This document shows, in pieces, positions 1,028 to 58,997 of a stretch of 64,000 nt of DNA (positions are counted from its first letter, which is position 1; each line of letters opens with the position of its first letter). The notes under the pieces are model-generated. The model was not told the origin of the DNA. It searched no databases and saw only the letters and a program-made list of their open reading frames with translations. Source of the DNA: Lophium mytilinum (Eukaryota); the NCBI GenBank assembly GCA_010093605.1, contig MU004197.1, positions 558,001-622,000 on the forward strand, written 5' to 3'. Both the position numbers and the translations under genes were made by a program.

Positions 1028-1990
1028 TCAACACCCATATCCGGGCTCGTCATGAACGGATCTGCAATCCACTAATTCACAATCTTCGTCCCCGTACTTG
1101 ACGTACCAGCACAGAGCAAAACGGCATCCTAAACGACTCAATAGACAAGCCTGGCAAGGAAACTTGCCGTCGCAGCCGATTTTGCGAACAAGGCAGTTGA
1201 TACATACGAGCTCGCGAGGAGGTGATATGGGGATGATGCTATGGGGTGAAATATCTCGCGAACTCAGCTTCGAAGCACTAGGCGTCATGGTAGGCAAAGA
1301 ATGGTCGCTGTCCTCCATGATTGAGCTTCCGCGGTGACTTGGAGGGAGTCCGAGATATCCAGGATAGTCGCTGAGAGTGAGCTTCTCTGCTTCAGTCCTC
1401 TTGATATTTGGGAGAAGCTGCTGTCTACGCTGCTCCATTTCGGCCATCTCTGTGCGGAGCTGCTCCTCGGGTTGTGAAGCCTCTGACTGCTCGCCTGGCC
1501 CCTGTGATCCTTCAGGGCGGAGTCCGAGGCGAAGAAATGGCACCTTCTCCTTTTTTGTTTTTTTCTGTGGCTTCGTTGCGTCCTTTGCCGCTCCTTTGCG
1601 CTTCAACCCCTTGGGTTGGGGTTCTATGACACTCTGTGGGGCCTTTATCTTTGCCTCTAGCACAACGCCCTTACGGGTTGAGGCAGAAGCTTCATCAACC
1701 TGGGCTTTCACGGTCCCCTGTTTCTCCGTTACCTTTCTTTCTAGCGCCACACGCCCCTGCGCCAACGCAAAGACTTCCTGGGCGAGGGTCTGGTTCTCTC
1801 GGAGAAGGGTCTTGTTGGCGCAGGCTTGTGCAGCACAACGATCTTCCAAGAGGTTGGAGATATCTTCCTTCACTTCGGTATCACTGGTTTCCTTTGAGAA
1901 GGCTAAGAGGAGCTTTTCGTTTTCGTCTTCGGGGAGTATGTAGTGACCCGTCTGGCACATCGGGCAGGGTTGGCGTCTAGGCATTTCCAT
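1028..1990 (-). CDS. Family member g1: CxxCxxxH module, coiled coil, C-terminal Zn2Cys6-like cluster and CCCH finger (about 320 aa)
   Basis: ATG at 1990 in good context, with TATAAAT upstream. N-terminus CPMCQTGH. C-terminus CINC-x6-C-DGKFP-CQAC-x6-C followed by C-x9-C-x4-C-x3-H. Confidence 0.8.
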   Translation of the reverse strand: MEMPRRQPCPMCQTGHYILPEDENEKLLLAFSKETSDTEVKEDISNLLEDRCAAQACANKTLLRENQTLAQEVFALAQGRVALERKVTEKQGTVKAQVDEASASTRKGVVLEAKIKAPQSVIEPQPKGLKRKGAAKDATKPQKKTKKEKVPFLRLGLRPEGSQGPGEQSEASQPEEQLRTEMAEMEQRRQQLLPNIKRTEAEKLTLSDYPGYLGLPPSHRGSSIMEDSDHSLPTMTPSASKLSSRDISPHSIIPISPPRELVCINCLVRKIGCDGKFPCQACLLSRLGCRFALCWYVKYGDEDCELVDCRSVHDEPGYGC

Positions 1991-2621
1991 CTTGACGGGG
2001 CAGCGCACTGTGTAGGCAAGCTTTGAGATAAGACGCGAGGGCAAAGTACGCACAAGCGCCTAAACTCCGCATTTATAGTCTTGTCTGCAGCAGTATCTTT
2101 GTTTGTTGCGAAAGTTTGTTTATATTGGGATGTATTTGGTGGGAACTGGAGGGAAATATGAGGTTAAACATGAGCCCTCAGCTTGGTCGTAATTTGACTT
2201 GTGCTTCGATGACCGCTGTGGATATAGGCTCATTCACCTTCACCAGATGATTGCCTAGCGCCATCTGCTTGCGATCAGGCAGCTTCCTGCGCAGTCTTGT
2301 CGCCGACCTGCTCCACACCCACTTCCAAACTCCCACCACTGGCGTTGAAAGCCATCCCCAGGGCTTTCTTCGTTGGCAATTGACACTCCTACTGTTCCTG
2401 ATATCCGAGCCAAGCTTGCTTTCCTCATCAGCACGTCCAATCCAGCACCGCCATCGGCACCAGTTGTGCCACAGTCCTTGGTCCGCACCCACAGCTGCAC
2501 ACTTCGCCGTGTATGAGACGCTCATCGAGTTCTCCTCGACATCCCGAAAAGTCGCTCATAACCCGCCAAGATCACTCACCGTTCTCAAGTAGCGATCGGG
2601 AAGAACGCTCCAGACGCCAAC

Positions 2622-3449
2622 ATGCCAATAAATTCATTGTACGCGGATACTCAGTGCCTGATATGCGAGGGAACGCATTTCGTAGTCACCAAACCCAACA
2701 AGATTAGGCTGCAAGATGCCATCGTCACTGTGCAGGATCCACTCAAGAGACTCGACATATCGGCCATCCTCTTCGACATCGATCGACAGCAGATATGCGA
2801 GATTGCAATGCTTCGTGCTCAAGCCGCTGCAAACATCTCAGCAAGCATCGAACAGCCCTTCCTCCGTCACATCGAGGACAAAGATCGGATGATAGAAGAG
2901 CTCAAGAGTCGACTCGCCGACCGCGATTCACAGCTCGAAAAAACCCGTCAAGCTACCGACGTGCTCGAGCGTGAGATCACCAACCTCAACGATGAGCTCG
3001 GCAACCGCGATGCAACCATTCAGCGCCTTGAAGAGAGAGTCCCCCATTTGGAAGGCCAGCTTGCCGAGGCCCGCAACTATCATGAAATGGTGATGCGTGC
3101 GAAGCATCAGCTGGCTGACGATCTGAAGAAAACAACCAACAAATTCGAGGCAAGCAAGAAGGTCATCACCATGCAGGAGAAGGGTATGTCTGAACTGAGA
3201 GCGGCGAAGCGCGTCCGAACCGAACCACTAGTCCACAAGTTGCAATGCCTGGATTGCTTTAAGACCGACCAGAGTGATTGCGATGGGTCTTCGAACTGCC
3301 AGAACTGTCAATCAGCGAACACACTGTGCACGTATCGCCTCTGCAAGCCATACCACGAGAAGTCTAGGTACAGCCACGGCAAGGGTTGTACTAAGCTTAG
3401 GTGCACCCAACTTCACGACGAGGACAGGGAGGGATACCGCTTCTCCTAG
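2622..3449 (+). CDS. Family member g2: full architecture (275 aa)
   Basis: CLICEGTH; long E/K/L/Q-rich heptad region; KRVR; CLDC-x7-C-DGSSN-CQNC-x6-C; C-x14-C-x4-C-x3-H. Confidence 0.85.
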   Translation: MPINSLYADTQCLICEGTHFVVTKPNKIRLQDAIVTVQDPLKRLDISAILFDIDRQQICEIAMLRAQAAANISASIEQPFLRHIEDKDRMIEELKSRLADRDSQLEKTRQATDVLEREITNLNDELGNRDATIQRLEERVPHLEGQLAEARNYHEMVMRAKHQLADDLKKTTNKFEASKKVITMQEKGMSELRAAKRVRTEPLVHKLQCLDCFKTDQSDCDGSSNCQNCQSANTLCTYRLCKPYHEKSRYSHGKGCTKLRCTQLHDEDREGYRFS

Positions 3450-5820
3450 GGGGATGAAGGTCAGGTCAACAAGAAGAAGATTGACACGAGTGAGGCGGCT
3501 ATTTGATCACAGTACTTTCCATTGGGACGGCAATGGCCAGGCACAAGTTCATAGCTTAATGCCCTACAGATCCAATATGCACTTTTTGCTTCTGGTGACA
3601 TATCTTACTTGATGCAATATTCCCATCACCCTAAATGTGCTTTTTCAAAGTCTAAAGAGATAAGGAACAGCCGAGATTAAGCGCATTCTTCCTTATCACG
3701 ATTGTGATAAGCCCTTAAAGATTCCACGACTTTCTGCGCCGAGGTGAAAGCCTCTGATTGGCTGCTGCCTGGCAGGCCTGGCGCTCCTGGCGTTCCTGGC
3801 GTGCACCTGGGTCCAAGCGCGGCTGAGTCATCAGCGAAGCGACGACCTATATCTTCTGCTCCTCGCCCACCGACCTGAACCTTTCTTCTTCAAGCCAACA
3901 CCAACATGCCACGGCAGGACCGTCCCGACATCAGGGATTCCCCGCCATCAGGGGAGCGCAACTGGCACGCTGCAAAAAGTGTACTGTTTACGGACACCGG
4001 CGTGCAAAACAGTTGCGGCGCAGCAGCCCACGGGACCACCATCCCAACAGGGTTTGCTGCCTCGCGGATTAGGAACCGTTGCAAATGAAGAGGAGCTAGC
4101 TTTGTCCTGTTCTACGCAGCATGAACGGGTCGGGCGCCTACCTCAAAAGAACTCTGTCAATGCAACGTACCCTCTTCCGTAAGGAGCGATTCACACGGTA
4201 CTCCTCAAAGGGTTCTCCCAGAGCAAAAGCCAATGGGTCGCTCAGTGGCATGTAGCTGCAAAAGGTACGTCGTCCTCTCTCCTCCACTAACAGTCTTCAT
4301 CGTGGACGAGTCGGGTGGTGGATTGGCACCAGCTGCGAAACGCCAGAGGGATTCGTCCCGGGGATGGTGGCGACCTTTGTTCAACCTTATGGAAGTATTC
4401 CCCTCCCATTTTCTTCTCATGACCTTCACTAACACTACTCACAGGGCTATTCGTCGCTGGATGGGAGTGGTTGGTTACTGGGTTCGTGTCGCTCTCATAG
4501 TTATAATGAATGCTGACATCTTCCTCATTTCGAGTGTCTCTTGATCGTGATCTGTGATGTAATGTCATTCTTTTGCACTGTGCTGCTATGAAGTGAGTCT
4601 TGCATTGTCTTTCTAACCTCATCGCTACTACTTGAAATCGTACATCATCACCCAGAGCAAGATTCAGCATCTGCAGGCAGGCGATTCTCGAATCACCATC
4701 AAAAATGTTTAATATCAGCCAGTCCTATGCTAACTTTCATCACCGCTACTCGTCGGTGATAAGTAGAACTTCCAACACTGACGGAGATACCAACAGCATT
4801 GGGAATTAGGCACTGGCTCTCCCCCGATGGCAGCCTCTCAACAGTCTATGGTCTGAGAAGAGGCAGCGTTAGTTCCTCCTTCGATGGAGAGAGGCGCTTT
4901 CGTCTCGTGTCGCGTTAGTTGCTACAATCTTCCGTTTCCTCAAAACCTTCTGTCTCCCTATCCCGATCCGATTCGAATCGCTCTGCGCTCGTTGAGCAAA
5001 AGCCTTGCCAACAGCAGCCAATACCCCATCTAGTGTAGTGTCAGTACGGCCGTCAGATAAGTGTTTACCTTTCCAAAACGAGTCTTCTCTGTCCTGCCGT
5101 CATCGCCAGAGTGCACGCGCGTAAACCCTCTTCTCCCTTCCTTCCTATCGCGATCAACTCCCATTGTCTGCAATTTGGAATACGCAGCCATCTACGTCTA
5201 AAGCCTTCGCATCGGTAGAGCCGCTAGCATATACATACAGCTTCTTTAGCACATCATACTAACCAAGCAGTCTCATACGCTTGGCCTCCGTTAATGGACA
5301 CTATCACAGACAACGATGGAACTGATAGCAGTGCCTTATCTCGAGTCCAAACCTGTGGGATTCATTTTAGGACATGCGAGAAAAGCAGGACCGTATGGCA
5401 AAGCGCAAAAATGCTGCCCCAAAGACGACTTCATGACTTTGAAATCTAGCTTCTGAGATAGTCTCATCTCTAGGATATTCCCGCGCAAATACTTAGCTTC
5501 TCGATGCGGCGACCAGTTTGACCTGAGTTAGAACTCGCAGGGAAAGCGATCAAGCAGGGGGGCATAAGCAGAATTACAATATAGCCACAGGTTTCATATT
5601 GAACAGTTTCCAGAAGAGCCCATATCATCATTATGCAGTGAAGGTCCCTCGATCTTCCCTTACATCGAGCACCAGCCCGAAGAAGCTAGCTACATAGTGC
5701 AGAAACCGATCAATGCAACACTAGTGCATTTTTGAAGCCCAATCGCAATCCCCGTGAATCAAGATGGTCAACTGTTCGTATGTGAAGGCTCCAATGATCG
5801 CACCAGCTAGCTTCAACTAG

Positions 5821-6600
5821 TCAAGCCGGAACCAAAACCATGCCGGCGTCCGGGTCCCTGCCTTTACGAATGTACTTGCAGAGGTTTGGCGCGCCAGACA
5901 CCACGCAGAAACTGCAAGGTCTACCTTTGTCGCATGTTCTCTTCGCTTCAAAGCAGACTGTGCAAGCGGAAGGCCGAGCGCCGCGGCGTTGACGCTTCTT
6001 GGGTGGGATAGGGCGGCGTAAGCCCGTAGGGTTGGGGGATGAGGCCTCGCCGCCTCTTGTCTTAGCAAGGAAAGTAGGTTGCTGATTGTTCCGCTGAGCC
6101 CTCCGGATCGTGTTCTCCATGATGTATTCACCTTCGGCCTTCTGGAGTCTGGTGTTCTCGCAGAGTAGCTCGCCTATTTCGCTGGTGAGGCGGGCGATTT
6201 TGATGGCATTGGCTTCAGCCTGGAGGTGCAAGTGGGCATTTTCGGTGCCACAGTCGTCTCGCTCGTGTGTAACAGTCGAGAGTTTGCGCATAGTTTCCCC
6301 TAGTCTAGGGGCTAGAGTCTCCTTCTCTTTAGCATCCATCTTATTCGTAGCCGTGGGTTTGCCGTTGAGGTCGTCGTATTGCTCGTCCAAGTTTTTAAAT
6401 TTATCCTGAAGATCCTTGCTCGTACGGTACAATTCCATAGACTTGCTCTATCCATCATTCATTCGATTCTCCAAGATCCTAAGGATCATAGTTCTATCCT
6501 CGTCTGAGAGGTCATCAGGAGTATTTAGGTGGCCCCAAAGCCGGGTGCTGTTGTGAACGCCATCGTCTGCATGGCGCAATTGACAAAGGGAGCAGTACAT
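5821..6600 (-). pseudogene. Family member g3 with an internal stop: CxxCxxxH module, coiled coil, Zn2Cys6 (no CCCH)
   Basis: ATG at 6600 reads MYCSLCQLRH...ILENRMNDG*SKSMELY, in frame with the track ORF 5821-6438. TAG at 6448-6450. C-terminus CTVC-x6-C-DKGRP-CSFC-x8-CKY. Confidence 0.75.
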
Positions 6601-7673
6601 GTGCTCCCTTGTCGCGGAGTGGTTCTAGTGGGACAGTGAGTAGAGTGAAGAAAAGAATACGATTTAGAAGTCGTGAGTGACTAGTCGGAAGTCTTATGGC
6701 TATGGGGGTCTTACCGTGGAGAGCTGGGCAAGGTTTGGAGTGTCTGAGTGGGACAACTGTCGCTGATCTCAAGGTGGTGTGTATTGGTTTTCTGGCCTTG
6801 TTCTGGAGACTGAAGTTCCCTTGATGGTTTGTCCTTGATGTCATGCTAACGGCGCGCGACGACCGCATTCACGGCTCTAGTACCAACAACGGCACTGCCT
6901 ACATGAGCTTGCTACCCGTCTTTCCCGCGGCCAACTCTATCCACCACAGCAACAGCCTCGCAAGCTAAGAAGGCTTTCTCCTACGGTCATCGCTGATGAG
7001 CCAGCAGCTGAGCTAACCTTTGCTGTATCTTACCGTAACAAGTAGCTCAGCTGGATAAGGGAATCAAAATCAGTTTGGTGAGCTTTGGACACCCTTGCTA
7101 GGGGCTAGAAATCTACCCAAAATCAAGTATAACACCTCTTGCTATGCCCATTTACAACTCTTTACTGTAGTGTCCTAACTTGCGTGATCTCCGCTTTTGA
7201 AATGCCACTGATCGTTCGAGATTTTCGACCATATCTTGTTCTTCATGCTTTCCCTGCCCATTGCTTGAGGTTTTCCGACATCGATTCTATATTCCAGGCC
7301 CTCAAATCGCCATACTAGAGCTATGGCGTTTCTCCCGCTGGCATACAAGTGAAATTCATTCAGCACAAGCCAGTATTGATAGTGAACGGTGAATGAGGGT
7401 GGCGGCTTTCGGACCTCCCCGCCTTTTATTCTGACTTAACTGAGGGTTCTCGCTCCTCGATCTTCAATCTTTCCAACCTCTTCATCGGAAACACCACACC
7501 CAACATATTCACAGAATCCGCCACACTCATACATCTCAAAGTTCCTTCACACTGCCTGACCTCCACGTAAGTATTCCACAATTGCGTACTGACCGCGGGT
7601 CTGCCCGCCGGTACATATAAGATCAGGCTCACTCAGGCAATCCAGTCGTGGCCAGTGCTGACCTCTAATTAGC

Positions 7674-8333
7674 ATGTCCGTGAACTTGGACTTCCCGAAG
7701 GTCAAATGCGAGATGTGTGGGCAGGATCACATTGATTGCACACACGAGGAAGGAAACTCTCTGATCGCTGCTATCTATTCCGAAGAGGACATCGACAAGC
7801 GACGTGCAATGAAACCGGTACTCCAGGACCTCTTTTTCCAAAAGCCCAAATGCGCGGAGCTTCTTCATAAAAAGCGAGCCCAGGACATGCATAACCAGAT
7901 CGAGGCGATTAAAAAAGCCAAACTTGACGCGGATAACCAGAACGAAGCGAGAGACAAGGTCATAAGGGACTTGAAGAACGAGATCGAGGCGACCGACAAG
8001 GTCATAAGGGACTCGAAGAAAAGGGACTTGGAGAACGAGATCGAGGCGACGAGAGACCTCGAGAAGCTTCGGCGCAAAACCGAGAGATGTCGGGAGCTAA
8101 ACCGGAAGTTAGCGGAGATTGCGGCAGCCCAGGCACAGCAGCGCCTGGACTACGACGCCTTCCAGGAAAAGGAGCGCGAGGCCGAAGAATCTGGTGATAT
8201 CCGGAAGATAGAGATGCTGGAGTGGGAGCGGCTTGCTCTCTACGAGAGGCACGACGATTTGGTGGACCAGATAGCTGCCGTTGAGGCCGATGTTCCTAGC
8301 AAGTGGGATGACGAGCTGCTCGAATCCCAGTAG
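7674..8333 (+). CDS. Family member g4: CxxCxxxH module and coiled coil only (219 aa)
   Basis: NLDFPKVKCEMCGQDHIDCT...VLQDLFFQKPKC; no C-terminal Cys cluster; TATA-like TATATAA at about 7614. Confidence 0.8.
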   Translation: MSVNLDFPKVKCEMCGQDHIDCTHEEGNSLIAAIYSEEDIDKRRAMKPVLQDLFFQKPKCAELLHKKRAQDMHNQIEAIKKAKLDADNQNEARDKVIRDLKNEIEATDKVIRDSKKRDLENEIEATRDLEKLRRKTERCRELNRKLAEIAAAQAQQRLDYDAFQEKEREAEESGDIRKIEMLEWERLALYERHDDLVDQIAAVEADVPSKWDDELLESQ

Positions 8334-8379
8334 AGCGTCAAAAGAGCGAGACGAGGATGATGGTCTATTGGGAGCATTG

Positions 8380-8606
8380 TGTCGGTGAAGTGGGTCGGGT
8401 ATCTGGAACAAACCTGCCAAGATCTTTGGACGAAATGAAACAAGGAACACTTTACTGTCAGGGAGTGGCGACGAGGGTTACCGTAGGCATGGCATCTTGT
8501 ACATACCCTCACCTTTCGTCAGACTTCTCTCTCTCTCTCTCTCTTCCTTATATCATCGTACTACAATACATCAAGTATACGGCCTAGAGCTCCTTTTTCC
8601 GTGTTA
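8380..8606 (+). mobile_element. Degenerate solo-LTR-like repeat, related to the copy at about 59.4-59.7 kb
   Basis: Begins TGTCGGTGAA. Its 3' part, GCATGGC...TCTTGTA...(CT)n...CAATACATCA...ACGGCCTA, aligns by eye with 59618-59729. Confidence 0.55.
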
Positions 8607-9543
8607 TTTGCATAGATTGGAACACTACGAAGTTTCTAGACGGACCTTGAACTCCTCTTGATATGCCGTCCCTTGTGCAATTGCAAACTGAATAGTCAGG
8701 CAATCAAATGTTTCAGGTTGACTTACTAGTATCGACACACCTTCCTCCAAATACATCCTTCCATGATGAACATTGTTCTAGGAGAGCGCTACTCGTAATC
8801 CCCCTTTTCACTATACTTAAACCCCTTCCCGCCTTATAGACTATAACATCTCTTCTTGGGCTTGGAGGATCTAGGGATTCCTCCGGTCATTTGATGATTC
8901 ACACATTTGTATCTTCATCTGCACGTGTAATTTTTCCGATTCGCGCAGCTGTACGTCAGGCCGTCCTCGAGCCGGTATAAAACGCCATCCGCAAGCCCGC
9001 ACAAGAGGCCGTACGTAAGCCTACACGTGTACTCGTACATAAAGCTGTAGAGCTATATAGAGCGGGACGTAATGGGAAGCCGGACACGCAGCCATGTCGT
9101 TTTGCTATATTGCTATCTCCTTTACCTCTGTATCTAAGAGGACGCTGGCTTCATCTGAAGCTTACCTTATAGAGGTCCCTTCTCATCAGGGCATCTGCGC
9201 TCACACAAGAGTACGAAAGGATGTCCTGAAGAGTCTGTCCAGCTTTTTAGCCAAATTAGAAAATAAGACGAGAAAATGGATGTACTATACGCCTTGCAAA
9301 ACGTGTATATTGGAGGAGCGCTCTCTCTGATCCATATGTCTTGACACCTCTGGATCATATTTGAAAAAGAGTGAATGGTGGGGCAAGGTTGCCTGCAACG
9401 TCAAGATTCACCTTTTTGGACCACCACCTGCGCCTTTATGAGCATATAAGTAGCCTATGACCCTGGGAGGTCCTTACTTACAGTTTTCCAACATCTTCCA
9501 CCTCTTCAACGCCTCCATCCCACCACCACTTACTCACCTCAAC

Positions 9544-10608
9544 ATGTTTTCCACACCCCCTGTAGAGTAAGTGCCCCTCACATAATTATTGACTACAACA
9601 GATCACCTTAGGGAAAGGCTACTGTGGCCTTTGCATACCCCGAGGCGCTTTGGTTAGTACAATACACCCATACTAACCTTCGTTAGGATGTTCCCGAATC
9701 TTGACTTTCCGCAATTCGAATGCAGCCAATGCACAAAGAGTCACTTCGACTGCACCGACGACGACAAGAACAGGCTCATAGAGGCCCTCGGGGCTGCTGA
9801 TTCTCAGACTGTGCACACTATAGCCCGATCTATAATATCGAAGATTCTACGAGACATCTCCGACCGCGACAACTGCGACAAGATCGAAACATTGACGAGG
9901 ATCAAGAAGCTCACTAGTGAGACTGAAGCAGCCAACGTCCAAATTAATAACAGCGAGAGAGTCGTTGCAGGTCTCCAGCAAGAGATAGAGAAGTTGGAGC
10001 CGCTGCTTCGCCAACTTGAAGAGAAAGAGTCGAAGACCGAAGACCTCCAGCAACAGGTGGAATTAACCAATTGTGGCTTAGCTTCACCGGTCAACGAAGA
10101 GAATGCCAATGTAGAGCGCCAGGAACTCGATACCCCGAGGGAGGGCAATGTTCTAGCTCTGCTTGGCCAAATTCGGGAGCAACAGAAAGAAATTGCTGAC
10201 CTCAAGCAAGGGATCGACGACCGCAATTGGCGTATCTTCCAGCGCGAACAGAGCATAGAGCGTCTCTCTCAGGCAACGGGTGTTGATGCGTTGACCAATC
10301 AACTTGAAGCGAAAGACGATAAAATCGAGACCCTTATGCGCGAGATTGACGAAGGGAATTCTCGGCTCCTCGTCCGCGAAAAAGAGATCAACGATCTACA
10401 GAAACAGATCAACGAGAAGGACTGCGAAAAGGATAATCTTCAGCGACAGATCGGCGCGCGGAATTCTCAAATCCTGGGTCGGGACTATGTTATAAAGGAG
10501 CTCCACGAGAAGGTGGAGCAGATGAAGAGCCGCCTTGAGGCTACTGATGTTACAACCCCTGGGATGGACAGAAAGAGGGCTCGGACTGAGGCTTCGGCTC
10601 GAGATTGA
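9544..10608 (+). CDS. Family member g5: CxxCxxxH module and long coiled coil ending in RKRAR; no zinc cluster
   Basis: Probable exon 1 at 9544-9566 and intron 9567-9686 (GTAAGT..TACTAAC..TAG), joining in frame to MFPNLDFPQFECSQCTKSHFDCT...ILRDISDRDNC. Confidence 0.8.
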
Positions 10609-11256
10609 TATGGTAAGGGAAGAATGACGGGGTGGCCAGATGCACTGACCGCTAAATGAAACGGTATGTTTGTCATGCAGTTGGAATGTCAAACACCTGC
10701 CATGAGCTTCATAGATGACACAATATATGGAACATTGAAATAATCATGTATCTTCGATTAGCGGGATTAATCATAGCGCGGGCGGCTTCTGTGAACTTCA
10801 GAATTAGTGTAAAATAGGACGTAGACAATCTTATAATGGGAGCCAGACTTCCAAATTATTCGTTGTTCGCAGCAATGATCTTCCAGTAATGATGCAAATT
10901 CATAAGATTATGAGACCGATTATGAGTCCGTCTCAGCTACCAACTGTTATAGACAAGCTGTCGTCACGTGCTGTACACGTATACTGCTAGCGATCGTGCG
11001 GCAGCGTTGCTGCGAGGTCTCGAATACTTGGTGTAAACCGTGTGTATTTGTAGAAGTGAGTGTGGAGGATAGACCTCCACACGTTGTTTGTAACTAATTA
11101 TCTGCCCCTGCTTCCTGCCTTCATTGTCCGCCAGCCCGTGCATGCCTGACATTGAGAATCTCAATTGACCTACCACAGTCTTCATATGCTGCTTCTACAC
11201 TTAACACTCCTCACTTTTCTCGCCATGCAACCCCTTTTGGTATACGTCTTCATGCC

Positions 11257-12213
11257 TTAGCTTTGCCTATCTCCATCGCCCCTCTTCCCCTGTCCCTCTT
11301 TGAATTGGTATCCCGTCTTATCCTCACCATGGAACTGGGTGCAATGTGCCCTCTTGCATCCCTTCCCGTGGCCCCAGCGCACATGCTCCTCAAACGGCCT
11401 ACAGGTTTGATAAAGGCACTCTGTCTTTGCCGTCTGGCAGTTCTGGCAATTTGATCCACCATCGCAGTCCAGCTTCGACCGAAAGCAGTGGCAGCAGCAG
11501 AGTTTACGGACGGGGGCTTCAAGCCGGGCACGCTTGTATTCTCGTAAACTCTCTAACTCTGTGTAGACCTGGCTCATACTGGCCTTCTCTTGTGTCATTG
11601 TCTTGAGTTCCTCCTCAGTGGCTTGGTTGCTCTCGTGTAGCTGATCGTATCGGCGCTTGAGCTGACGGTGATCCGTCATCCACTTCCTAACGTCGTCCGC
11701 GGTAGAGTCGTACTTGGCCTTCGACTGCTTGCGCTGCTGCTCGCACTGCTCCCGAAGGTCCTCGTTTGCAGTCTTAAGCTCTTGAATCGTCTTGTGGCGA
11801 TTGCGTAGCTGAGTTGTGTGTTTGGCTTCAACCCTCTCGGCCTCGTCTTCGAGCTCTTGGATACGGTCGTAGTACTTGCGAAGCTCGTCGTCGTGATTGG
11901 CATACTGGTGCTTGAGCTGTAGAATTTCCTGTTCCTTGGCTTCAAGTTGACGAATGTGTGATCGTTCGATTTGCTGGCGATCCTCCATAATTGCGGTACC
12001 ATTTGCCAAGTTTTGAACTCGAGCCGCCGTCTTCTCGCAGACATGGTGTTGACGGATATCCTGCAAGAGTACCACTATCTCCAGCTTCTTACGAACGTCA
12101 GGTGTTTCGATGATGGCGTCGATGAGGTTTTGATGCTCGGAGTCTCCCACGTCCCAGTGCTTTCCCTGGCATACTGGGCAGTCGGTTTTCGAGAAGTTCG
12201 GTTCAAGCGACAT
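11257..12213 (-). CDS. Family member g6: full architecture (318 aa), closest to g2
   Basis: CPVCQGKH; coiled coil; KRAR; CCHC-x6-C-DGGSN-CQNC-x6-C; C-x14-C-x4-C-x3-H with the HGKGC..CTQ.H.ED..GY.F tail shared with g2. Confidence 0.85.
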   Translation of the reverse strand: MSLEPNFSKTDCPVCQGKHWDVGDSEHQNLIDAIIETPDVRKKLEIVVLLQDIRQHHVCEKTAARVQNLANGTAIMEDRQQIERSHIRQLEAKEQEILQLKHQYANHDDELRKYYDRIQELEDEAERVEAKHTTQLRNRHKTIQELKTANEDLREQCEQQRKQSKAKYDSTADDVRKWMTDHRQLKRRYDQLHESNQATEEELKTMTQEKASMSQVYTELESLREYKRARLEAPVRKLCCCHCFRSKLDCDGGSNCQNCQTAKTECLYQTCRPFEEHVRWGHGKGCKRAHCTQFHGEDKTGYQFKEGQGKRGDGDRQS

Positions 12214-12820
12214 GTTGGTGTAGATATGGCTCCTTTGATAGCAAGGAGGAGCTTGAAGTGGCGGGGATTGCTCAAGAGAAGGTTGTGACGAGCCTGTGGA
12301 AGCTCAGGCTGCGTGTGCTAGCCTTTAGCTACTGAGTGTAAAAAATTTGCCGCTGACCTAATCTGTTCTATTCACCAACGTTTCGTGGAGTGGCAAGGTT
12401 TTCTAGGTCAGGGCGCAATTATACCGCTCTTACAACGCGACCTGTCCTCTACAATACCATCCCCAATCAGATCAACAATACAGTACCAGACCACAGATTT
12501 GGGCACGCGAAATTGTCACTGCTTGGCTCACAGATTGCTCCCCGGAGACCACTGTGAGGGGTAGCCTGGCTACTAGGCAGACAGTCATTCAAGACACAGT
12601 CCAATCTGCACTGTTTGGAACTCGGCTTCCTGTTGAATCTTCGACGTTCCGTGGGGTAACCCCAAGCAGTGGCAAACCAAACGCCAAACTCAGATACCTT
12701 CATCTCAATCTCCACTGTAAGCGCTTCTCGAGTACACAATGCCCTTTTCTCCGCTTCCGAATTCTTGCTTTTGTTTCAACGAACTCAGTTTCACGTCTTA
12801 TTCACTGACAACCTGCCAGT

Positions 12821-13583
12821 ATGGCTGACAACCTTGGAGACCCCTCGAACGCGGTTTCGATGCTGCTAAAGAGGATCGAAGAGCTTGAAATCGAGACGGC
12901 CAAGCTGAAGCGCGAGAAGGCCAGTGCCAACGCCGCGCACGAACTTATCGACGATCAGTTGGACAATCTGTACGGCGAGCAATTGGAACACAAGCGAGTG
13001 TGGGAAAAAGATACCGCCGAGAAAGAATGCCAAATTGAGGAATTGAAGGATATCATAGAGGGGGTGAAGGACGAACGGAACGACTACAGGTTCGAGGTGG
13101 AGGAGCTGACCGATGAGAACTACGTGCTGCGAAAAGATCGAGATAAACTACAGGCCGCGTTGGAAGGCAAAGATGAAGAAATCGCAGTTTTGAAGGCTCG
13201 GTTTGCCAGCAAAGATGCAACTATCGACCGGCTCGTGAAAGAAAACGCCCGACTCCAGGAGGTTGAGGATACAGACATCATGGAAGATATTATGGAGAGC
13301 ACAATTCGGAAAAGCAACTCCCAGCGAACCAACCTTCTGCCCAAGAGCCGTGACCTCCAACCCGAACTGGTCCTTTCTTTGGCAGCTCCGAAGGCGCCCA
13401 TGGCTCTTCGTCAGGACGCGCAATCCTTCAACGACACCAAGCTCCCTATCCGACACAACAAGAGAAAGCGCCCCAATCCTACGACTTGAGCTGCCTGTCT
13501 TGAAACAGGACTGTCTGCGATGGAGGCCAACCAGCAGTGCCTGCAAACAGTCTGGCAATGAGAAGGATTGCAAGTATGTCTAA
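12821..13583 (+). CDS. Family member g7: coiled-coil ORF (12821-13489) followed by a disrupted Zn2Cys6 relic (13487-13583); paralogue of g3
   Basis: ENARLQEVE..IMESTIRK matches g3 ENTRLQKAE..IMENTIRR. The stop lies at the first-Cys position, and the remaining Cys residues are spread over three frames. Confidence 0.75.
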
Positions 13584-13907: not shown

Positions 13908-15330
13908 TTAATCCTCGAAAATGACCTCCTGCACTGCCTCCCACAACGAGAGTACATAAGGATCTCCAAATGGGAGAATCTGAGTCATGCACACAGCCGC
14001 AACGCCCTTCTCTCGGTCCAGAGCCCAGAAGCAGTTGCTGAGCCCTGCTGCAGCTCCTCTAGGGAATCCATCCTTCTCGCACGAAGCTGCATTTGTAGCC
14101 TTTGGATTGGCCTGTAGTTGAAAGTTGAGCCCCCATCCGAAATAACCCTCCACCGGCACTGTCTTTGAGGCTGGAGGGACCATAAGGTCAGGTCGGGAAA
14201 CTTCATTAGCAAATTCAACGTGCTTTGCCATGTAGTCTGGGATCTGATTCTGGAACATCTGGTCGATGGTCTCCCGTAGCAGGACTCGTTGCTGGGTGTG
14301 AGGCGATACGCCGTTGTTGAGGATCATACTTAGTACTCGAGTGTAGTCGGCAGCTGTGCTTAGAAGACCGGCTTGTGGATGTCAGCTTTATACTTAGGAA
14401 GGCCGATCGGATCGGCGATGATCCAAAGCATTACTACTAACCCCCGGCAGATTGAAATGCGTCTTCCATCTCTGCGCGAGCTGGTCCATAGAAATGTGCT
14501 CGCGCGGCTAGATCCTTTCCTCTTTGATGGAAGATTGCCATTTTAGACCGCGTCTCTTGAGAAGGCACAAAGCTCGTGCTGGCCATTCCAAGAGGCTGGA
14601 ATATATTGGTCTTCGTAAACTCCTCTAGGCTTGTGCCTGAACGTCGTTCAATGAATATACCAACCCAGTCAATTCCAACCTGCAGCAATTTATCAGCATG
14701 GGACCGAACGTTAGACCGAGTACGGGGATATATACAGAGTACTGATGACTAGTTCCTGGCTCGTAAATCAGCGGCTGCTGAACCCCTTCTATTTTCCCTT
14801 GAAACTCGTCCTTGGTCGCATCTTTGCCGAAGTGGTGGGTCCAAAGATCTTCGTTGGTATAGAACGAATACGAAAATCCTGCAGTCTGGAGTGAACCGAA
14901 TCATCAGCTTCATATCTCTGAGTTCTCTACAGGGGTCTGCAAATCAGCCACTAACATGCGTCATCAACATCCGCAGCGTAATCCGATTCGCTTTCGGCCT
15001 TAGCTTCCCATGCTCCAAGATCTGAATATCCTTCAGCTCCGGCACGACTTCTTCTAACAGGTCTGCCGAATCCAAATCTGCTTTTCTTTGTTCCACTAGT
15101 TGCATCAGCGCAATAGCCGAGATCAATTTCGTGCATGAGGCTATCCAGAATACCGCGTCCGTTGTCATTGGCTCCTCAACACCTAGCCCGCGGATGCCCG
15201 ACGCGTTGGAGTATTTGGTGTGTCCAAGCCGGTCCACCACCTGGACGACGAGCCCGGGTACATGTTGAGGGTCTGAGGTGGCATTTTGGACCAAAGAGCT
15301 CAGACGGCTGGCGGTTGATGATGAAGACAT
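13908..15330 (-). CDS. Beta-lactamase-family serine hydrolase (family VIII esterase / LovD-like), multi-exon
   Basis: FWIASCTK (SxxK), ITLRMLMTH, GIDWVGIFIERRSG..LEEF...IFQPLGM; about three introns. Confidence 0.85.
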
Positions 15331-15704
15331 TTGTTCAGCTTTGACGTTAGGGATTGAGCATTTATTGCTGCCGGGAAACTACCCAGAGTAAATTGGAAGC
15401 AGCTTTATGAAAAGTGATATCGGCGGCGCAAACAATTGATCGGAGCTAGAACTATCTGCGAGGTGCTCGCTTGCCCAAACTTTTTGGAGCGAGCGGGGTT
15501 CTTTCGCGCTAGCGAGACCACCACAACCGTCGCGGATCAAACTCCCGATGTGCGGTGTTTCGGTGCAACCTTCGTGATAGAGCAGCTCATGTACCTCCTC
15601 GCTATTGATATCCAGTTCGACTTCAAGCTAAGAATCATGTTTCTCGTATCTATATCTTCGATATCATCCTTCCCTCTCTACCCGCATTTTGAGAAATATA
15701 TACA

Positions 15705-17887: not shown

Positions 17888-18862
17888 CTTCCTTTTTACT
17901 TGGTTTCCAAGCCCTCCTAGAAAGCGAAAGGCGACAAATCTAAGGCCTTTGACTCTTTTTTAACGAAGTATAAGCAGTGGCGTGGCTAATAAATGTAGCT
18001 CCTTTGTACGCGTAGTATAATGTCTCTAGGACGTAAGAGTTAGAGTAAGGGAGTTGGTTAGAACATATCTTTTGTATAATGGACGATGTTAGTGTAGTGT
18101 ATAAAAGGGCGAGATTCTAGACTTTGTACAGCATTGGAGTAGGTGTCCAGGCCATTCGTCTGAAGTTGCACGGCTCAACGTTCCTCCACCCCGCCTGAGT
18201 CAGCTTCGAAAACGGAGTTCACTCCAGGCGTTTTATACTCCAATCCACCGCCTCGCACGCCCCATCCGACGGCACACTCCTCAACGAATTGTCCTGAGCT
18301 AGACCCGATGCACTCGTCCGCACCTCAACCAAACGTCCGCGTATCTGCTCTGCTCTGAGCCAGCCTCGGCCGCGCGTGCCAATGAGCATCCCCTCACCGC
18401 CCACGCAAGGGTGAGAGGACCCTGAGTTCAGCCCTAAACGTGTCACCACCAACGGGCTTGCATGTGACGGGAATGTCGCAATCAGCGAGCAAAGGCGAGG
18501 AATCTGAAAGAGCCGAGTTTGATTTTGAGGCAATTGACGGTGCCGCTCGTGAAAGCCCTCGATCTGCTCGGACGGCCGCAGTCAATGCCCTCGGCGAGGA
18601 CCTCCACACCGCCTGGACCCCGACCCCCGTTGCGGGAAGAAGCCGCTACCCTACCGCGTGCCGTAGAAAGTGGCTCCCATGGATCAGCCCTTGGCAAGCA
18701 CAATCAACCTCCTAGCAAAATGCGCTTACCGTCTGGCCCGCTGGGCACGCACCCCTTGTTAGCCCCAGGAGCAGAAAACTCGACATTTGTTCGAGTCTTC
18801 TGTCCTCTCCAGCTCTCTCCTCCCTCAATTCCCTCCAGTCTGCCCTGATCTCCTTCGCCAGC

Positions 18863-20296
18863 ATGCAGGACGTCAACATCTTAGAGCTGCGTCGAGCCAT
18901 TCCCGACTACTGCTTCAAAGCCTCGACCGCTCGCTCGCTGAGCTATGTAGCGCGGGACATCTTCCTGGCGGGCTCGCTCGCCTACCTCGCCCTCTACACG
19001 ATCCCCACCTACACCACCTCCTCCTCCCTCCCTCGATTCCTCGCATGGCAGCTCTACGGCTTTTGCCAGGGCCTCGTCGGCACCGGTATCTGGATTCTTG
19101 CCCACGAGTGCGGCCACGGAGCCTTTTCCGCCAGCACTCGTCTGAACAACGTGGTGGGATGGGCTCTGCATTCCTCCCTCCTCGTGCCCTTCTTCTCGTG
19201 GAAGTTCACCCACCACCAGCACCACCAGTTCACTGGCCACATGAGCAAGGACACGGCATTCGTGCCCGTCCGTGAGGAGGAGCCCATCTCCGACTTCGCT
19301 GCGGCAATGGAGAGCCTTGAGGACATGACCGAAGACGCCCCCATCGTTGCGTGCCTGCGTCTCATTTTCGCGCAGACACTCGGCTGGCCGCTCTACCTCA
19401 TCTTCCAGATCACCGCAGGCAAGGGGTCGGACATCCACAAGGGCAACCGCAAGACAACATGGTATAACAAGAGTCATTTCGCGCCGGGCGGCGTCCTCTT
19501 CACCGCCCAGCAATGGAAGTACATCTTTGCGTCTGACGTCGGGCTCGGCCTCACCTTCGCTGCGCTGTGGGTGCTCAAGGAGCGCATGGGGTGGGCGATG
19601 GTGTGGAACCTGTATGGGCTGCCGTACATGTGGGTGCACCATTGGCTCGGTAAGTTTTGCTTGTCCCTGATCTGCACCACCATCGTGGACCCTGAAAACT
19701 AACATTTCGCCAGTCGCCATCACCTACCTGCACCACACGCACGCCGACCTGCCGCACTTCGAGGCGGATTCATGGACCTTTGCAAGAGGCGCGACGTCGA
19801 CCGTCGACCGTGATATGGGCTTCATTGACCGCCACCTCTTCCACGGCATCATCGGAACTCACGTGTGCCATCATCTGTTCCCGTAAGCACCTCCCAAAGC
19901 ACAACCCCTCTACCCCTCTACCCCATACCCCATCCCCATCCACACTTTCCCCACACCCCACCTCCGCAAAGCTAACCCGTTCCCAGCCGCATCCCCTTCT
20001 ACTACGCCGAAGACGCCACCGCCGCCATCGTCCCCGTCCTCGGCGCCGCCTACCACAAAGACAGCACCCCCTTCATGCTCTCCCTGTGGCGCACCTTCAC
20101 CACCTGCCGCTGGGTAACCCCCGTCACGCTGCCCGACGGCCAGGGCACCATGCGCGTCTGGACAACCAAACGCGCCACGCCCGCCGTAGGCGCGAAGCCG
20201 AAGCCCTCAGCCTCGGGCATCTCCAACCTGAAGAAGCGACGGGAGAGCATGACCGCGTCGGCGCAGACGGTGCGGCCGGTCGTCATCAAGGGGTGA
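18863..20296 (+). CDS. Delta-12 / omega-type fatty acid desaturase (5' end uncertain, may extend upstream)
   Basis: His boxes HECGH, HHQHH and HVCHH; LRRAIPDYCF; introns at about 19649-19713 and 19883-19987. Confidence 0.9.
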
Positions 20297-30444: not shown

Positions 30445-30575
30445 TTAATATACTAATAACTAAGTTACTAGCAACTAACTTACTAATAACTAACTTACTA
30501 ATAACTAACTTACTAATAGCTAACTTACTAATAGCCGACTTACTAGTAAATAACTTACTAATAATCTACTTATAG
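30445..30575 (+). repeat. 15-bp tandem repeat inside the Gypsy gag-protease region
   Basis: About seven copies of ACTAACTTACTAATA-like units. Confidence 0.75.
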
Positions 30576-45450: not shown

Positions 45451-45464
45451 AGAGGGGGATAGGA
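45451..45464 (+). promoter_or_regulatory. Polypurine tract
   Basis: AGAGGGGGATAGGA immediately before the 3' LTR. Confidence 0.8.
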
Positions 45465-47631: not shown

Positions 47632-49846
<2,215 letters not shown>

Positions 49847-58346: not shown

Positions 58347-58997
58347 ATGGCCGACCTCAACCTCCCTTCCGCGCCCTCTCACCCGGACTTCCCCCCCGGC
58401 GGACGTAAGATACCCTAATCTAAGAAGTGACAGACAGCATAACTGATAGAAATTTTAGCTCATCTCCACCCCGAGTACCTGGAGACACAGCACTGCGTCA
58501 ACTGCGGCATGCCGCACTACATCCTCGGCCCCAACCACGCCGATCTCCTCTGGCTCTCCCTGGAGACGGGTGAGGAGGAAGCCCCCGCCAAGCGCCGCCT
58601 AGTCTGTGAGATCCTGCGGGACAACGTCGCGAAGAAGGACTGCGAGCAGCAGATGAGCGCCAATCTCGCGCAGGCGCAGCAGCGCAATGTCGTGCACCTG
58701 CAGCAGCAGCTTGCGCAGGTGCAGGCGGAGCTCGAGCAGCTCAAGAAGCTCGCGCCGCTGGCGGCTGCGCAGCTGGGCAAGGCCCTCGATCCCGCTGCTG
58801 CGCGTGTGCTGGAGTGCCTCCACTGCTTCAAGAAGCATCTAGTTTGTGATGGTGGAATGCCCTGCTCGGAGTGTGTGGTGTTTGGACAGACCTGCCGCTA
58901 CAAGAAGTGCTATAAGTTCCATAATGTTATGCACGGCACTGTGTGCGAGAACCCGGGCTGCAGGATGGTGCATGCGGAGTTGGGGTTTGGGGCTTAG
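58347..58997 (+). CDS. Family member g8: compact full-architecture paralogue (about 198 aa, two exons)
   Basis: Exon 1 at 58347-58404 and intron 58405-58458 give ...QHCVNCGMPHY...ILRDNVAKKDC, a short coiled coil, CLHC-x6-C-DGGMP-CSEC-x6-C, then C-x11-C-x4-C-x3-H. TATA at about 58219. Confidence 0.85.

What the first reader, a model, noticed from the sequence alone, without database searches (positions are those of the whole stretch)
1028..13583. Cluster of seven divergent paralogues of an unrecognised zinc-module / coiled-coil / Zn2Cys6-CCCH family
Seen in sequence: g1-g7 fill 12.5 kb and no other gene could be identified among them. Six carry an N-terminal CxxCxxxH motif and all have a heptad-like coiled coil. 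Three (g1, g2, g6) end in Zn2Cys6 plus CCCH, g3 in Zn2Cys6 alone, and g7 in a decayed Zn2Cys6. Established: Gal4-type clusters are usually N-terminal in larger transcription factors with a middle homology region, which is absent here. Inference: this is a fast-evolving, birth-and-death family of small nucleic-acid-binding adaptors that may oligomerise through the coiled coil. That pattern is typical of genetic conflict (TE silencing, meiotic drive, non-self recognition) or sexual-stage regulators, but the sequence alone does not show the function. This is the best candidate in the window for an undescribed system.
Basis: partly seen in the sequence, partly recalled or inferred. Interest (0 to 1): 0.9.

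Follow-up and report, generated by a model that had tools for sequence, protein, structure and literature searches.

The report
Clustered atypical fungal zinc-cluster coiled-coil proteins
A wood-inhabiting ascomycete carries a tight cluster of small, uncharacterised genes for proteins built as a zinc-stapled cap, a coiled-coil rod and a Gal4-like zinc cluster with an extra zinc site at the tail; they are probably dimeric nuclear nucleic-acid binders, an unusual arrangement of known parts and not a new kind of system.

Summary
Profiles built only from sequences outside the seven-gene cluster find the N-terminal C-x2-C-x3-H...C module in g1, g2, g4, g5 and g6 (E 2e-15 to 2e-6; g3 marginal, 0.05). 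They find the C-terminal module in g1, g2, g3 and g6 (E 1e-22 to 1e-5), and in no other ORF of the window except an eighth copy, g8, at 58347-58997.

Four copies are complete (g1, g2, g6, g8). Two have no C-terminal head (g4, g5). Two are decayed (g3, g7).

The first half of the head is a true Gal4-type Zn2Cys6 domain (PUT3 E 1e-6; predicted fold rmsd 0.7-1.3 A). The "CCCH" half and the N-terminal module match no Pfam or PDB family. A homodimer model of g8 gives a parallel in-register coiled coil (score 0.56, best control 0.01). Contigs of one public run that behaves like RNA cover g6 and a spliced g7.

A tool names the genome Lophium mytilinum. Relatives are database "hypothetical proteins" only, and four literature searches found no description.

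Best reading: dimeric nuclear Zn2Cys6-type binders with inverted architecture and no regulatory middle region. Genetic conflict and fast evolution are not shown. This is a new variant of a known kind, of moderate interest.

The parts
1028..1990 (-). g1, 320 aa, complete architecture: N-terminal C2HC module, short heptad stretch, long basic/Pro-Ser-rich middle, Zn2Cys6 (1124-1204) plus CCCH-like site (1052-1111)
   Evidence: N 2.3e-6, C 7.5e-16; Pfam Zn_clus 1.4e-6. The public model P0008 splices the head out.
2622..3449 (+). g2, 275 aa, complete architecture; identical to library protein P0002
   Evidence: N 1.4e-11, C 1.2e-22; 34% identical to g6 (E 3e-47) and 41% to P0001
5821..6438 (-). g3 main ORF, 205 aa: coiled coil, basic patch PPKKRQRRGARP, Zn2Cys6 (5878-5964), no CCCH-like half
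   Evidence: C 1.4e-5; Pfam Zn_clus 1.8e-3, below cut-off. The public model P0010 starts at an internal Met.
6448..6600 (-). g3 severed N-terminal piece (MYCSLCQLRH...) ending in an in-frame TAG at 6448-6450
   Evidence: N-module HMM E 0.052
7674..8333 (+). g4, 219 aa: N-terminal C2HC module and coiled coil, no C-terminal zinc head
   Evidence: N 1.7e-8; C-module 0.7, no match
9688..10608 (+). g5, 306 aa: N-terminal C2HC module and long coiled coil. It stops 5 codons after the RKRARTE motif that precedes the zinc cluster in g2, g6 and P0001
   Evidence: N 2e-12; C-module 0.8; strongest heptad signal
11257..12213 (-). g6, 318 aa, complete architecture; an unspliced contig of run X1 covers 11046-12293
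   Evidence: N 2e-15, C 2.9e-22
12717..12819 (+). 103-nt GT..AG intron in the 5' leader of g7, ending just before the ATG at 12821
   Evidence: joint 12716/12820 in one contig of run X1
12821..13489 (+). g7, 222 aa: MADNL start, zinc motif of the N-module missing, coiled coil, basic patch NKRKRPNP, then stop
   Evidence: g3-g7 BLASTP E 0.017; covered by the spliced contig
13489..13583 (+). decayed Zn2Cys6 of g7: out of frame with the ORF, TGA where the second Cys should be, and a further frame change before the last Cys pair
   Evidence: read
58347..58997 (+). g8, eighth copy, 198 aa, complete architecture; exon 1 58347-58404, intron 58405-58458 (GTAAGA...TAG), exon 2 58459-58997
   Evidence: equals public model P0009; homodimer model
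3987..4531 (.). unassigned abundant transcript-like contig inside the cluster; not a family member
   Evidence: 545-nt contig, depth 685; no Rfam family; no convincing ORF; no fold signal

Best explanation
g1-g8 belong to a lineage-restricted family of small nuclear proteins.

Proposed build. Each chain forms a parallel two-stranded coiled-coil rod of variable length. The rod starts with a zinc-stapled cap: C-x2-C-x3-H in a beta hairpin, with the fourth ligand, a Cys, about 40 residues later in the first helix of the rod. After a short basic, NLS-like linker the rod ends in a compact head of about 60 residues with nine Cys and one His. The head is a Gal4-type Zn2Cys6 binuclear cluster followed directly by a third, CCCH-spaced zinc site.

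Proposed action. The dimer presents two such heads side by side and binds nucleic acid, most likely two DNA half-sites as Gal4-type dimers do. The topology is inverted (coil before cluster), and there is no middle homology region or recognisable activation domain. I therefore expect them to act as repressors, competitors or tethers, with partners recruited through the cap or the rod.

History. The cluster arose by old local duplications followed by domain loss and decay. Copies that keep the rod but lack the head (g4, g5, g7) could pair with complete copies and blunt them.

Shown: paralogy, Zn2Cys6 identity and the state of each gene.
Supported by models only: the folds and the dimer.
Inferred: nuclear location, DNA binding, regulatory role and heterodimers.
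For: 1. Family and ligands. Among 7 full-length members, 14 of the 22 invariant columns are Cys or His, at 24-33% overall identity. Among 10 members, 10 of the 13 invariant columns are the head's nine Cys and one His.

2. Zn2Cys6 identity.
- A profile of 11 heads hits PDB Zn2Cys6 domains: PUT3 1e-6, Pho7 7e-5, HAP1 6e-4; 7 sequences at E<=1e-3; 23 of the 24 listed are zinc-cluster proteins.
- Pfam Zn_clus matches 8 of 11 heads.
- The AlphaFold model has pLDDT 83. It superposes on PUT3 at 0.7-1.3 A over 30-36 columns. All 10 chains with Z>=2 of 48,161 are Zn2Cys6 proteins.
- Spacing is C-x2-C-x6/7-C-x5-C-x2-C-x6-C.

3. Base-contact position. The residue three before the third Cys contacts the CGG guanine. 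It is Lys in Gal4, Ppr1, Hap1, Leu3 and AlcR, His in Put3 and Asn in Pho7 (PMC6265462, passages read). By Cys register in A3 the same position is K, R, H, Q or N in 10 of 11 heads. The five window heads read K (g1), Q (g2), K (g3), K (g6) and H (g8).

4. Dimer. g8 x2 scored 0.56; the best of 3 controls scored 0.01.
- Contacts are in register (104:104, 111:111, 72:72) over residues 51-125, with a 3-4 spacing.
- The runs agree in at least 61% of contacts and partner pLDDT is at least 69.
- The mark was reached by 21 of 30 proteins solved as pairs of one chain and by 0 of 23 solved as single chains.
- On eukaryotes it was reached by 17 of 29, but by only 1 of the 7 with no older solved relative, and by 0 of 30 single chains.
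- The alignment I supplied was not used.

5. Cap. The AlphaFold model has pLDDT 89: hairpin 8-11/18-21, helix 24-36, helix 40-69. C12, C15 and H19 are invariant and C59 is present in 9 of 10 rows.

6. Basic patch just before the head: KRVRTE (g2), KRARLE (g6), RKRARTE (g5), KRKRPNP (g7), KKRQRRGARP (g3).

7. Transcription. One public run behaves like RNA: its cover is patchy and it holds a GT..AG joint. It has a contig over all of g6 and a spliced contig over g7.
Against: - No binding, localisation or phenotype data exist.
- The Lys just before the third Cys contacts a phosphate in Pho7 (Lys301), and PUT3 also has Lys at that position in the alignment. It is absent in 11 of 11 heads and is Asp in 5. 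One head (P0006) has Gly at the base-contact position.
- g2 and g6 heads fail Pfam Zn_clus even at E<=1.
- The CCCH-spaced half matches no Pfam CCCH model (0 of 11). Its only structural matches to CCCH fingers are noise (probability 0.02-0.03).
- g8, P0005 and P0007 lack the basic patch.
- The promoters of the copies share no motif and show no CGG-Nx-CCG excess.
- The dimer pass may reflect the general ease of modelling coiled coils, and the tool warns that eukaryote passes may come from memory.
- Contigs show neither strand nor level, and run X1 is RNA only by behaviour.
Confidence: 0.5

Rival explanations
1. Structural or adaptor coiled-coil proteins. The zinc modules serve protein-protein contacts or folding only, and the family does not bind nucleic acid sequence-specifically. 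In this reading it resembles coiled-coil adaptors with terminal zinc fingers.
For: Rod length varies widely (about 75 residues in g8, more than 200 in g5). Head-less copies g4 and g5 keep intact ORFs with conserved caps. The phosphate-contacting Lys before the third Cys is lost in 11 of 11 heads. The promoters share no motif.
Against: The head is a significant Zn2Cys6 match, and 10 of 11 heads keep a donor side chain at the base-contact position. A basic NLS-like patch sits next to the head in most copies. Every solved Zn2Cys6 protein that matched is a transcription factor or a subunit of a chromatin or centromere complex.
Confidence: 0.2
2. RNA-binding post-transcriptional regulators. The CCCH-spaced site is the working surface and the Zn2Cys6 part is a scaffold.
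For: The C-x6-14-C-x4-C-x3-H spacing is invariant in 10 of the 11 aligned heads; g3 lacks it. UniRef labels P0006 'C3H1-type'. The conserved H-x-E-x-G-[YF] tail follows the site.
Against: 0 of 11 heads match any Pfam CCCH model at E<=10. Matches to MBNL1 and CPSF30 fingers have probability 0.02-0.03. The g3/g7 branch does without this half.
Confidence: 0.1
3. One reading: a genetic-conflict or sexual-stage system (TE silencing, drive, non-self recognition) evolving by rapid birth and death.
For: Tandem clustering; at least 10 copies apparently on one scaffold; two decayed and two truncated copies; a 17-kb RIP-like block lies between the cluster and g8.
Against: No toxin, nuclease, NLR, HET or TE-derived domain lies in or beside the cluster. 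Paralogues are deeply diverged and free of RIP signature, which does not indicate recent turnover. A relative exists in another order, in Lophiostoma. No population or cross data exist.
Confidence: 0.08
4. Mostly dead DNA: the ORFs are decaying relics without function.
For: g3 and g7 carry disabling lesions. The public model of g1 splices its head out. g6's own sequence did not come back from two protein libraries.
Against: All 14 ligand residues are kept in g1, g2, g6 and g8 despite 24-33% identity. The ORFs are long and open. Contigs cover g6 and g7.
Confidence: 0.03

Closest known systems
Gal4/Put3/Ppr1-type Zn2Cys6 binuclear-cluster transcription factors (Pfam PF00172)
   Same: Six-Cys spacing, significant profile match and predicted fold of the first half of the head. 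A donor side chain at the CGG-contact position in 10 of 11 heads. Dimerisation through a coiled coil.
   Different: The cluster is at the C-terminus, after the coiled coil. Canonical factors have an N-terminal cluster, then coil, middle homology region and acidic activator (PMC4025492, passages). No Fungal_trans domain is found. Proteins are only 198-320 aa. A third zinc site is fused to the cluster. The Lys before the third Cys is lost.
Ume6 of Saccharomyces cerevisiae
   Same: The Zn2Cys6 cluster is at the C-terminus. I saw this only as the title of Anderson et al. 1995 in the reference list of PMC2447501.
   Different: From recall, not tested here: Ume6 is a large protein without a coiled coil before the cluster, without an N-terminal C2HC cap and without a CCCH-spaced extension.
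CCCH (C3H1) zinc fingers of the tristetraprolin / CPSF30 / MBNL kind
   Same: Ligand order C...C...C-x3-H. UniRef labels P0006 'C3H1-type'.
   Different: Spacing is C-x6-14-C-x4-C-x3-H. No Pfam CCCH model matches any of the 11 heads. Structural matches are at noise level. The first Cys lies only 4 residues after the last Cys of the Zn2Cys6, so the two form one compact unit (pLDDT 86-94 over residues 11-70).
Coiled-coil adaptors with terminal zinc fingers (NEMO/optineurin type) and head-less dominant-negative partners such as Id proteins: recalled analogies only
   Same: A dimeric rod with small zinc modules at the ends, and paralogues that keep the dimerisation part but lack the binding head.
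   Different: No sequence or fold relation was found. These are functional analogies from memory, not tested.

Membership tests
Zn2Cys6 binuclear cluster domain (PF00172) | Six Cys with spacing C-x2-C-x6-C-x5-12-C-x2-C-x6-8-C (range recalled) | tested here: met
   C-x2-C-x6/7-C-x5-C-x2-C-x6-C (x8 in g3) in 11 of 11 aligned heads, with seven invariant columns (six Cys and one Asp).
Zn2Cys6 binuclear cluster domain (PF00172) | Significant sequence-profile match | tested here: met
   Family profile against PDB: PUT3 1e-6, Pho7 7e-5, HAP1 6e-4. Pfam Zn_clus matches 8 of 11 heads at E<=10, best 8.7e-8. Among the full window proteins only g1 passes the Pfam cut-off; g3 is below it and g2 and g6 have no hit.
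Zn2Cys6 binuclear cluster domain (PF00172) | Two-helix binuclear-cluster fold | tested here: met
   Prediction only. pLDDT 83, helices 10-15 and 26-31. Rmsd 0.7-1.3 A to PUT3 over 30-36 columns, Foldseek probability 0.99-1.0 but E 0.05-0.09. 10 of 10 chains with Z>=2 are Zn2Cys6, best Z 3.6.
Zn2Cys6 binuclear cluster domain (PF00172) | Base-contacting side chain three residues before the third Cys | tested here: met
   K, R, H, Q or N in 10 of 11 heads and Gly in P0006. Reference residues come from PMC6265462. Actual DNA binding cannot be tested with these tools.
Canonical zinc-cluster transcription factor architecture | N-terminal cluster followed by linker and coiled coil | tested here: not met
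   The cluster lies in the last 60-90 residues, after the coiled coil.
Canonical zinc-cluster transcription factor architecture | Middle homology region (Fungal_trans PF04082 or Fungal_trans_2 PF11951) | tested here: not met
   No hit in any of the 7 proteins at E<=1. The proteins are too short to hold one.
CCCH / C3H1 zinc finger | C-x(4-15)-C-x(4-6)-C-x3-H spacing (range recalled) | tested here: met
   C-x6-14-C-x4-C-x3-H in 10 of 11 heads; g3 lacks it.
CCCH / C3H1 zinc finger | Match to a curated CCCH profile | tested here: not met
   0 of 11 heads match any Pfam CCCH model at E<=10. The only support is the UniRef label 'C3H1-type' on P0006.
CCCH / C3H1 zinc finger | CCCH finger fold | tested here: inconclusive
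   MBNL1, CPSF30 and Yth1 appear at Foldseek E 2.4-5.2, probability 0.02-0.04. None appears in the wide search.
Any described family for the N-terminal C2HC cap | Profile or fold match | tested here: inconclusive
   Pfam: no family in more than 1 of 10 modules. PDB profile: best E 0.051, to an unrelated tautomerase. Foldseek best E 1.0. Wide search best Z 6.0, all generic long helices.

The most novel reading that the evidence does not exclude
The head of about 60 residues is a new composite three-zinc nucleic-acid-binding domain: Zn2Cys6 welded to a CCCH-spaced site. The N-terminal C-x2-C-x3-H...C cap is a new zinc fold that staples the start of a coiled coil. The clustered paralogues form a combinatorial homo- and heterodimer network, in which head-less copies (g4, g5, g7, and possibly a spliced form of g1) act as natural dominant-negative partners of the complete copies.
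Probability: 0.2. Interest if true: 0.6.

Novelty: new variant of a known kind. Interest (0 to 1): 0.42.

Why it matters
Zinc-cluster proteins are the largest fungal-specific class of transcription factors, and nearly all that have been studied share one layout. This family turns that layout around, drops the regulatory middle region, adds two further zinc modules and sits in a tandem cluster with naturally head-less members. That would widen what a Zn2Cys6 domain is known to be used for. It would also offer a compact natural system for studying how half-site geometry depends on which side of the cluster the dimerising coil lies.

The family also exposes annotation gaps. One member's conserved head is spliced out in the public model. 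Another member, covered by a transcript-like contig, did not come back from two large protein libraries.

The scope is limited so far: relatives are named in two Dothideomycete species, and there are no functional data.

Tried and rejected
- Whole-genome search: no genome is held for this window, so copy number outside the window rests on library hits alone.
- The search for homologous proteins: 0 hits with g6, 1 with the full-length alignment and 5 with the head alignment. The word index reaches this family poorly.
For P0005 and P0006 it returned only generic Zn_clus clusters at TM 0.20-0.30.
The g2/g6/P0001 alignment gave 2 loci that match 17 residues only. I read L002, which encodes a bacterial ATPase-like ORF, so that match is spurious; L001 was not read.
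- Sequencing runs: no RNA holder listed. One run, X1, is 'RNA?' by guess.
- The laid run left g1-g5 uncovered. That is no evidence on their expression.
- Shared promoter words and CGG-Nx-CCG sites in the five upstream regions: 0 shared 7- to 10-mers, as in shuffles, and 3 sites, all in one region.
- Remnants of a zinc head downstream of g4 and g5: none by pattern or HMM.
- An intron that would rescue the stop in g3: none found by eye.
- RIP as the cause of decay in g3 and g7: the gene indices are normal.
- Transcript at 3987-4531: no Rfam family, fold z-scores -1.13 and 0.14, no convincing ORF.
- Earlier findings of this scan: nothing held.
- Literature: searches found no paper on this architecture, and search 56 on the species found none on these genes. 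The review by MacPherson et al., asked for under a recalled id, is not held.

Full report
WHAT IS THERE

The window is from a filamentous ascomycete. Its genes need spliceosomal introns. A 17-kb block (28.5-45.5 kb) has 29% GC and strong RIP-like dinucleotide indices: TpA/ApT 1.83 and (CpA+TpG)/(ApC+GpT) 0.16, against 0.73-0.75 and 1.23-1.26 in the flanks (the usual thresholds are recalled). A protein search named g1's public model "hypothetical protein BU16DRAFT_543656 [Lophium mytilinum]".

- g1: 1028-1990 (-)
- g2: 2622-3449 (+)
- g3: 5821-6438 (-)
- g4: 7674-8333 (+)
- g5: 9688-10608 (+)
- g6: 11257-12213 (-)
- g7: 12821-13489 (+)

IS IT MORE THAN CHANCE?

I built HMMs of the N-terminal and C-terminal modules only from sequences outside the seven-gene cluster: the eighth copy plus library proteins. 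I ran them against all 1818 six-frame ORFs of the window.
- N-module: g6 2e-15, g5 2e-12, g2 1.4e-11, g4 1.7e-8, g1 2.3e-6, and the upstream piece of g3 at 0.052. The next ORF scores 1.8.
- C-module: g2 1.2e-22, g6 2.9e-22, g1 7.5e-16, g3 1.4e-5. The next scores 0.7.

BLASTP with a proteome-sized database setting links g2-g6 (3e-47), g4-g5 (8e-8), g1-g8 (3e-6), g1-g6 (9e-6) and g6-g8 (7e-6). It links g3-g7 only weakly (0.017).

Among seven full-length members that are 24-33% identical, 14 of the 22 invariant columns are Cys or His. So the paralogy and the motifs are real.

GENE BY GENE

- Complete copies: g1, g2, g6 and an eighth copy, g8. It has exon 1 at 58347-58404, a 54-nt GTAAGA...TAG intron, and exon 2 at 58459-58997. 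Its translation equals public model P0009.
- g4 has cap and coil but no head.
- g5 also lacks the head. It stops five codons after the RKRARTE motif that immediately precedes the zinc cluster in g2, g6 and P0001. This looks like truncation of a once complete gene. No head remnant lies downstream of g4 or g5.
- g3 has its CxxCxxxH on a separate piece (6451-6600), cut off by an in-frame TAG at 6448-6450. I saw no usable intron around it. Its head has the Zn2Cys6 but not the second half.
- g7 starts MADNL... like g8. It lacks the zinc motif of the cap and ends before a Zn2Cys6 remnant (13489-13583). The remnant lies in two other frames and has TGA where the second Cys should be.
- The gene bodies show no RIP signature.

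THE HEAD

In 10 of the 11 aligned heads the pattern is C-x2-C-x6/7-C-D-G-x3-C-x2-C-x6-C-x4-C-x6-14-C-x4-C-x3-H-x-E-x1-3-G-[YF]. g3 has only the Zn2Cys6 part, with x8 before its last Cys.

First half:
- A profile of the 11 heads matches solved Zn2Cys6 domains: PUT3 1e-6, Pho7 7e-5, HAP1 6e-4, then LEU3, LAC9, GAL4, Cep3, RSC3/30 and PPR1. Of the 24 sequences listed, 23 are zinc-cluster proteins. The matches cover only the first half of the head (profile positions 5-47).
- Pfam Zn_clus matches 8 of 11 heads. Among the full window proteins only g1 passes the curated cut-off, and g2 and g6 give no hit.
- The AlphaFold model (pLDDT 83) superposes on PUT3 at 0.7-1.3 A.
- In a search of 48,161 representative chains, all 10 with Z>=2 are Zn2Cys6 proteins, though Z is at most 3.6.

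Contact residues. According to the Pho7 structure paper (PMC6265462, passages read), the only base-contacting side chain of Gal4 is Lys18. The equivalent is Asn299 in Pho7, His in Put3, and Lys in Ppr1, Hap1, Leu3 and AlcR. This is the residue three before the third Cys. In the family this position is K, R, H, Q or N in 10 of 11 heads, and it differs between paralogues: K in g1, g3 and g6, Q in g2, H in g8. That is compatible with CGG-like recognition and diversified specificity. Against it, the Lys directly before the third Cys is missing in 11 of 11 heads and is Asp in 5. That Lys is a phosphate contact in Pho7.

Second half. It has CCCH order and permissive CCCH spacing, but it matches no Pfam CCCH model (0 of 11), and its structural matches to CCCH fingers are at noise level. 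Its first Cys lies four residues after the last Cys of the cluster, and the whole unit is modelled confidently as one body. I therefore call it a CCCH-spaced third zinc site, not a proven C3H1 finger.

THE CAP

C12, C15, H19, L30 and L50 are invariant, and C59 is present in 9 of 10 rows; the g3 row ends before it. AlphaFold (pLDDT 89) gives a zinc-knuckle hairpin, a short helix and a long helix that runs on into the rod.

No Pfam family, no PDB sequence (best E 0.051) and no solved fold (Foldseek best E 1.0; wide search best Z 6.0, all generic helices) resembles it specifically. A missing match does not prove a new fold.

THE ROD

Pfam gives only sub-threshold hits to many coiled-coil families. 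A crude heptad-register score is far above its shuffles for g5 and g6, above the shuffle mean for all copies, and short in g1 and g8.

A homodimer prediction for g8 scored 0.56 against a best control of 0.01.
- Contacts are in register, with a 3-4 spacing, from residue 51 to 125.
- The runs agree in at least 61% of contacts, and partner pLDDT is at least 69.
- The tool's mark was reached by 21 of 30 proteins solved as pairs of one chain and by 0 of 23 solved as single chains.
- On eukaryotes it was reached by 17 of 29, but by only 1 of the 7 without an older solved relative, and by 0 of 30 single chains.
- The alignment I supplied was not used.

This supports a parallel dimer but does not show it.

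EXPRESSION

One public run (coded X1) is labelled RNA only by guess. It covers only five pieces of the 12.8 kb that were laid, and it holds a 103-nt GT..AG joint (12716/12820), so it behaves like RNA.
- One contig spans 11046-12293, which is all of g6, unspliced.
- Another spans 12392-12716 plus 12820 onwards, which is g7 with an intron in its leader. It runs on into the convergent neighbouring gene.
- Contigs show neither strand nor level.
It has no Rfam match, no convincing ORF and no fold signal.

RELATIVES

phmmer with g6 against 1.84 billion representatives found 7 proteins at E<=1e-3:
- P0001: 2.7e-50; 41% identical to g2 over the full length.
- g2 itself.
- P0003 to P0007.

All of them share the head, and P0001, P0005 and P0007 also share the cap.

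Names given by the tools:
- P0005 and P0007 are further Lophium mytilinum hypothetical proteins. They sit on a contig of the same length (1,605,038 bp) as the one carrying g1, g3 and g8. The genome therefore has at least ten members, apparently on one scaffold.
- P0006 is from Lophiostoma macrostomum, a different order.
- The sources of P0001, P0003 and P0004 could not be looked up.

The census is shallow.

HOW IT PROBABLY WORKS

Shown: a paralogous family, a genuine Zn2Cys6 domain at the C-terminus, and four complete, two head-less and two decayed copies.

Supported by models: a zinc-stapled cap, a parallel dimeric rod and a compact three-zinc head.

Inferred:
- Nuclear location, from the basic patch next to the head in g2, g3, g5, g6 and g7.
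- Binding of two DNA half-sites by the paired heads, with a geometry different from Gal4 because the coil lies on the other side of the cluster.
- A role as repressor, competitor or tether, since there is no middle homology region or evident activation domain (canonical layout from PMC4025492).
- Possible poisoning of complete copies by head-less ones.

I give this reading about 0.5. The rivals are: adaptor without nucleic-acid binding (0.2), RNA binder (0.1), conflict system (0.08) and relics (0.03).

COMPARISON AND NOVELTY

The head's first half is a member of the Zn2Cys6 domain family. The proteins are not canonical zinc-cluster transcription factors, because the position of the cluster and the middle region were tested and not met.

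The closest known case of a C-terminal cluster is Ume6. I saw this only as a title in a reference list.

Four literature searches and one on the species found no description. Databases hold only "hypothetical" or domain-level names.

I rate this a new variant of a known kind. The architecture is unusual and two of its modules are undescribed, but the distribution known so far is narrow and there is no functional evidence.

Noticed in passing
window 58347-58997 (+): An eighth, complete family member (198 aa, one 54-nt intron) lies 45 kb from the cluster, beyond the AT-rich block and next to a cytochrome-P450-like gene. It equals public model P0009.
   Followed up: yes
window 3987-4531: A 545-nt unspliced contig with the highest depth of the laid run (685) lies between g2 and g3. 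It has no Rfam family, no convincing ORF (longest 103 aa, low plausibility) and fold z-scores of -1.13 and 0.14. It may be a non-coding or small-peptide transcript.
   Followed up: partly
window 1028-1210 (-): The public model of g1 (P0008, 291 aa) removes the conserved zinc head through two predicted introns with good donors (GTATGT, GTACGT) and ends in an unrelated tail. The unspliced ORF keeps all ten head ligands (C-module E 7.5e-16). Either the model is wrong or a head-less isoform exists. No read cover was available to decide.
   Followed up: partly
window 11257-12213 (-): g6's own sequence came back from neither protein library searched with it, although g1, g2, g3 and g8 models are held there and a contig covers g6. 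It may be missing from the public gene set.
   Followed up: no
window 28500-45500: A 17-kb block with 29% GC and extreme RIP-like indices (TpA/ApT 1.83, (CpA+TpG)/(ApC+GpT) 0.16), presumably mutated transposons, separates the cluster side from the g8 side. The family genes themselves show no such bias.
   Followed up: partly
window 1991-2621, 6601-7673, 12214-12820: Six of the seven clustered genes sit in three head-to-head pairs (g1/g2, g3/g4, g6/g7) with intergenic regions of 0.6-1.1 kb. Each pair combines different subtypes. No shared sequence word was found in these regions.
   Followed up: partly
window 5116-5309 and 5424-5586: Two short low-depth contigs (depth 4.1 and 2.7) of the same run lie between the unassigned transcript and g3. 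Their origin was not examined.
   Followed up: no
window 13908-15378 (-), 18716-19702 (+), 21020-24043 (-), 24659-26464 (+), 47772-49449 (-), 55878-57841 (+), 62189-63840 (-): By eye, the flanking ORFs look like ordinary genes: beta-lactamase-like, fatty-acid desaturase-like, a long Gln/Pro-rich protein, a tRNA methyltransferase subunit-like gene, glucose-6-phosphate dehydrogenase, a P450 and a histidine acid phosphatase. None was run against a library. No secondary-metabolite or transposon gene is evident beside the cluster.
   Followed up: no
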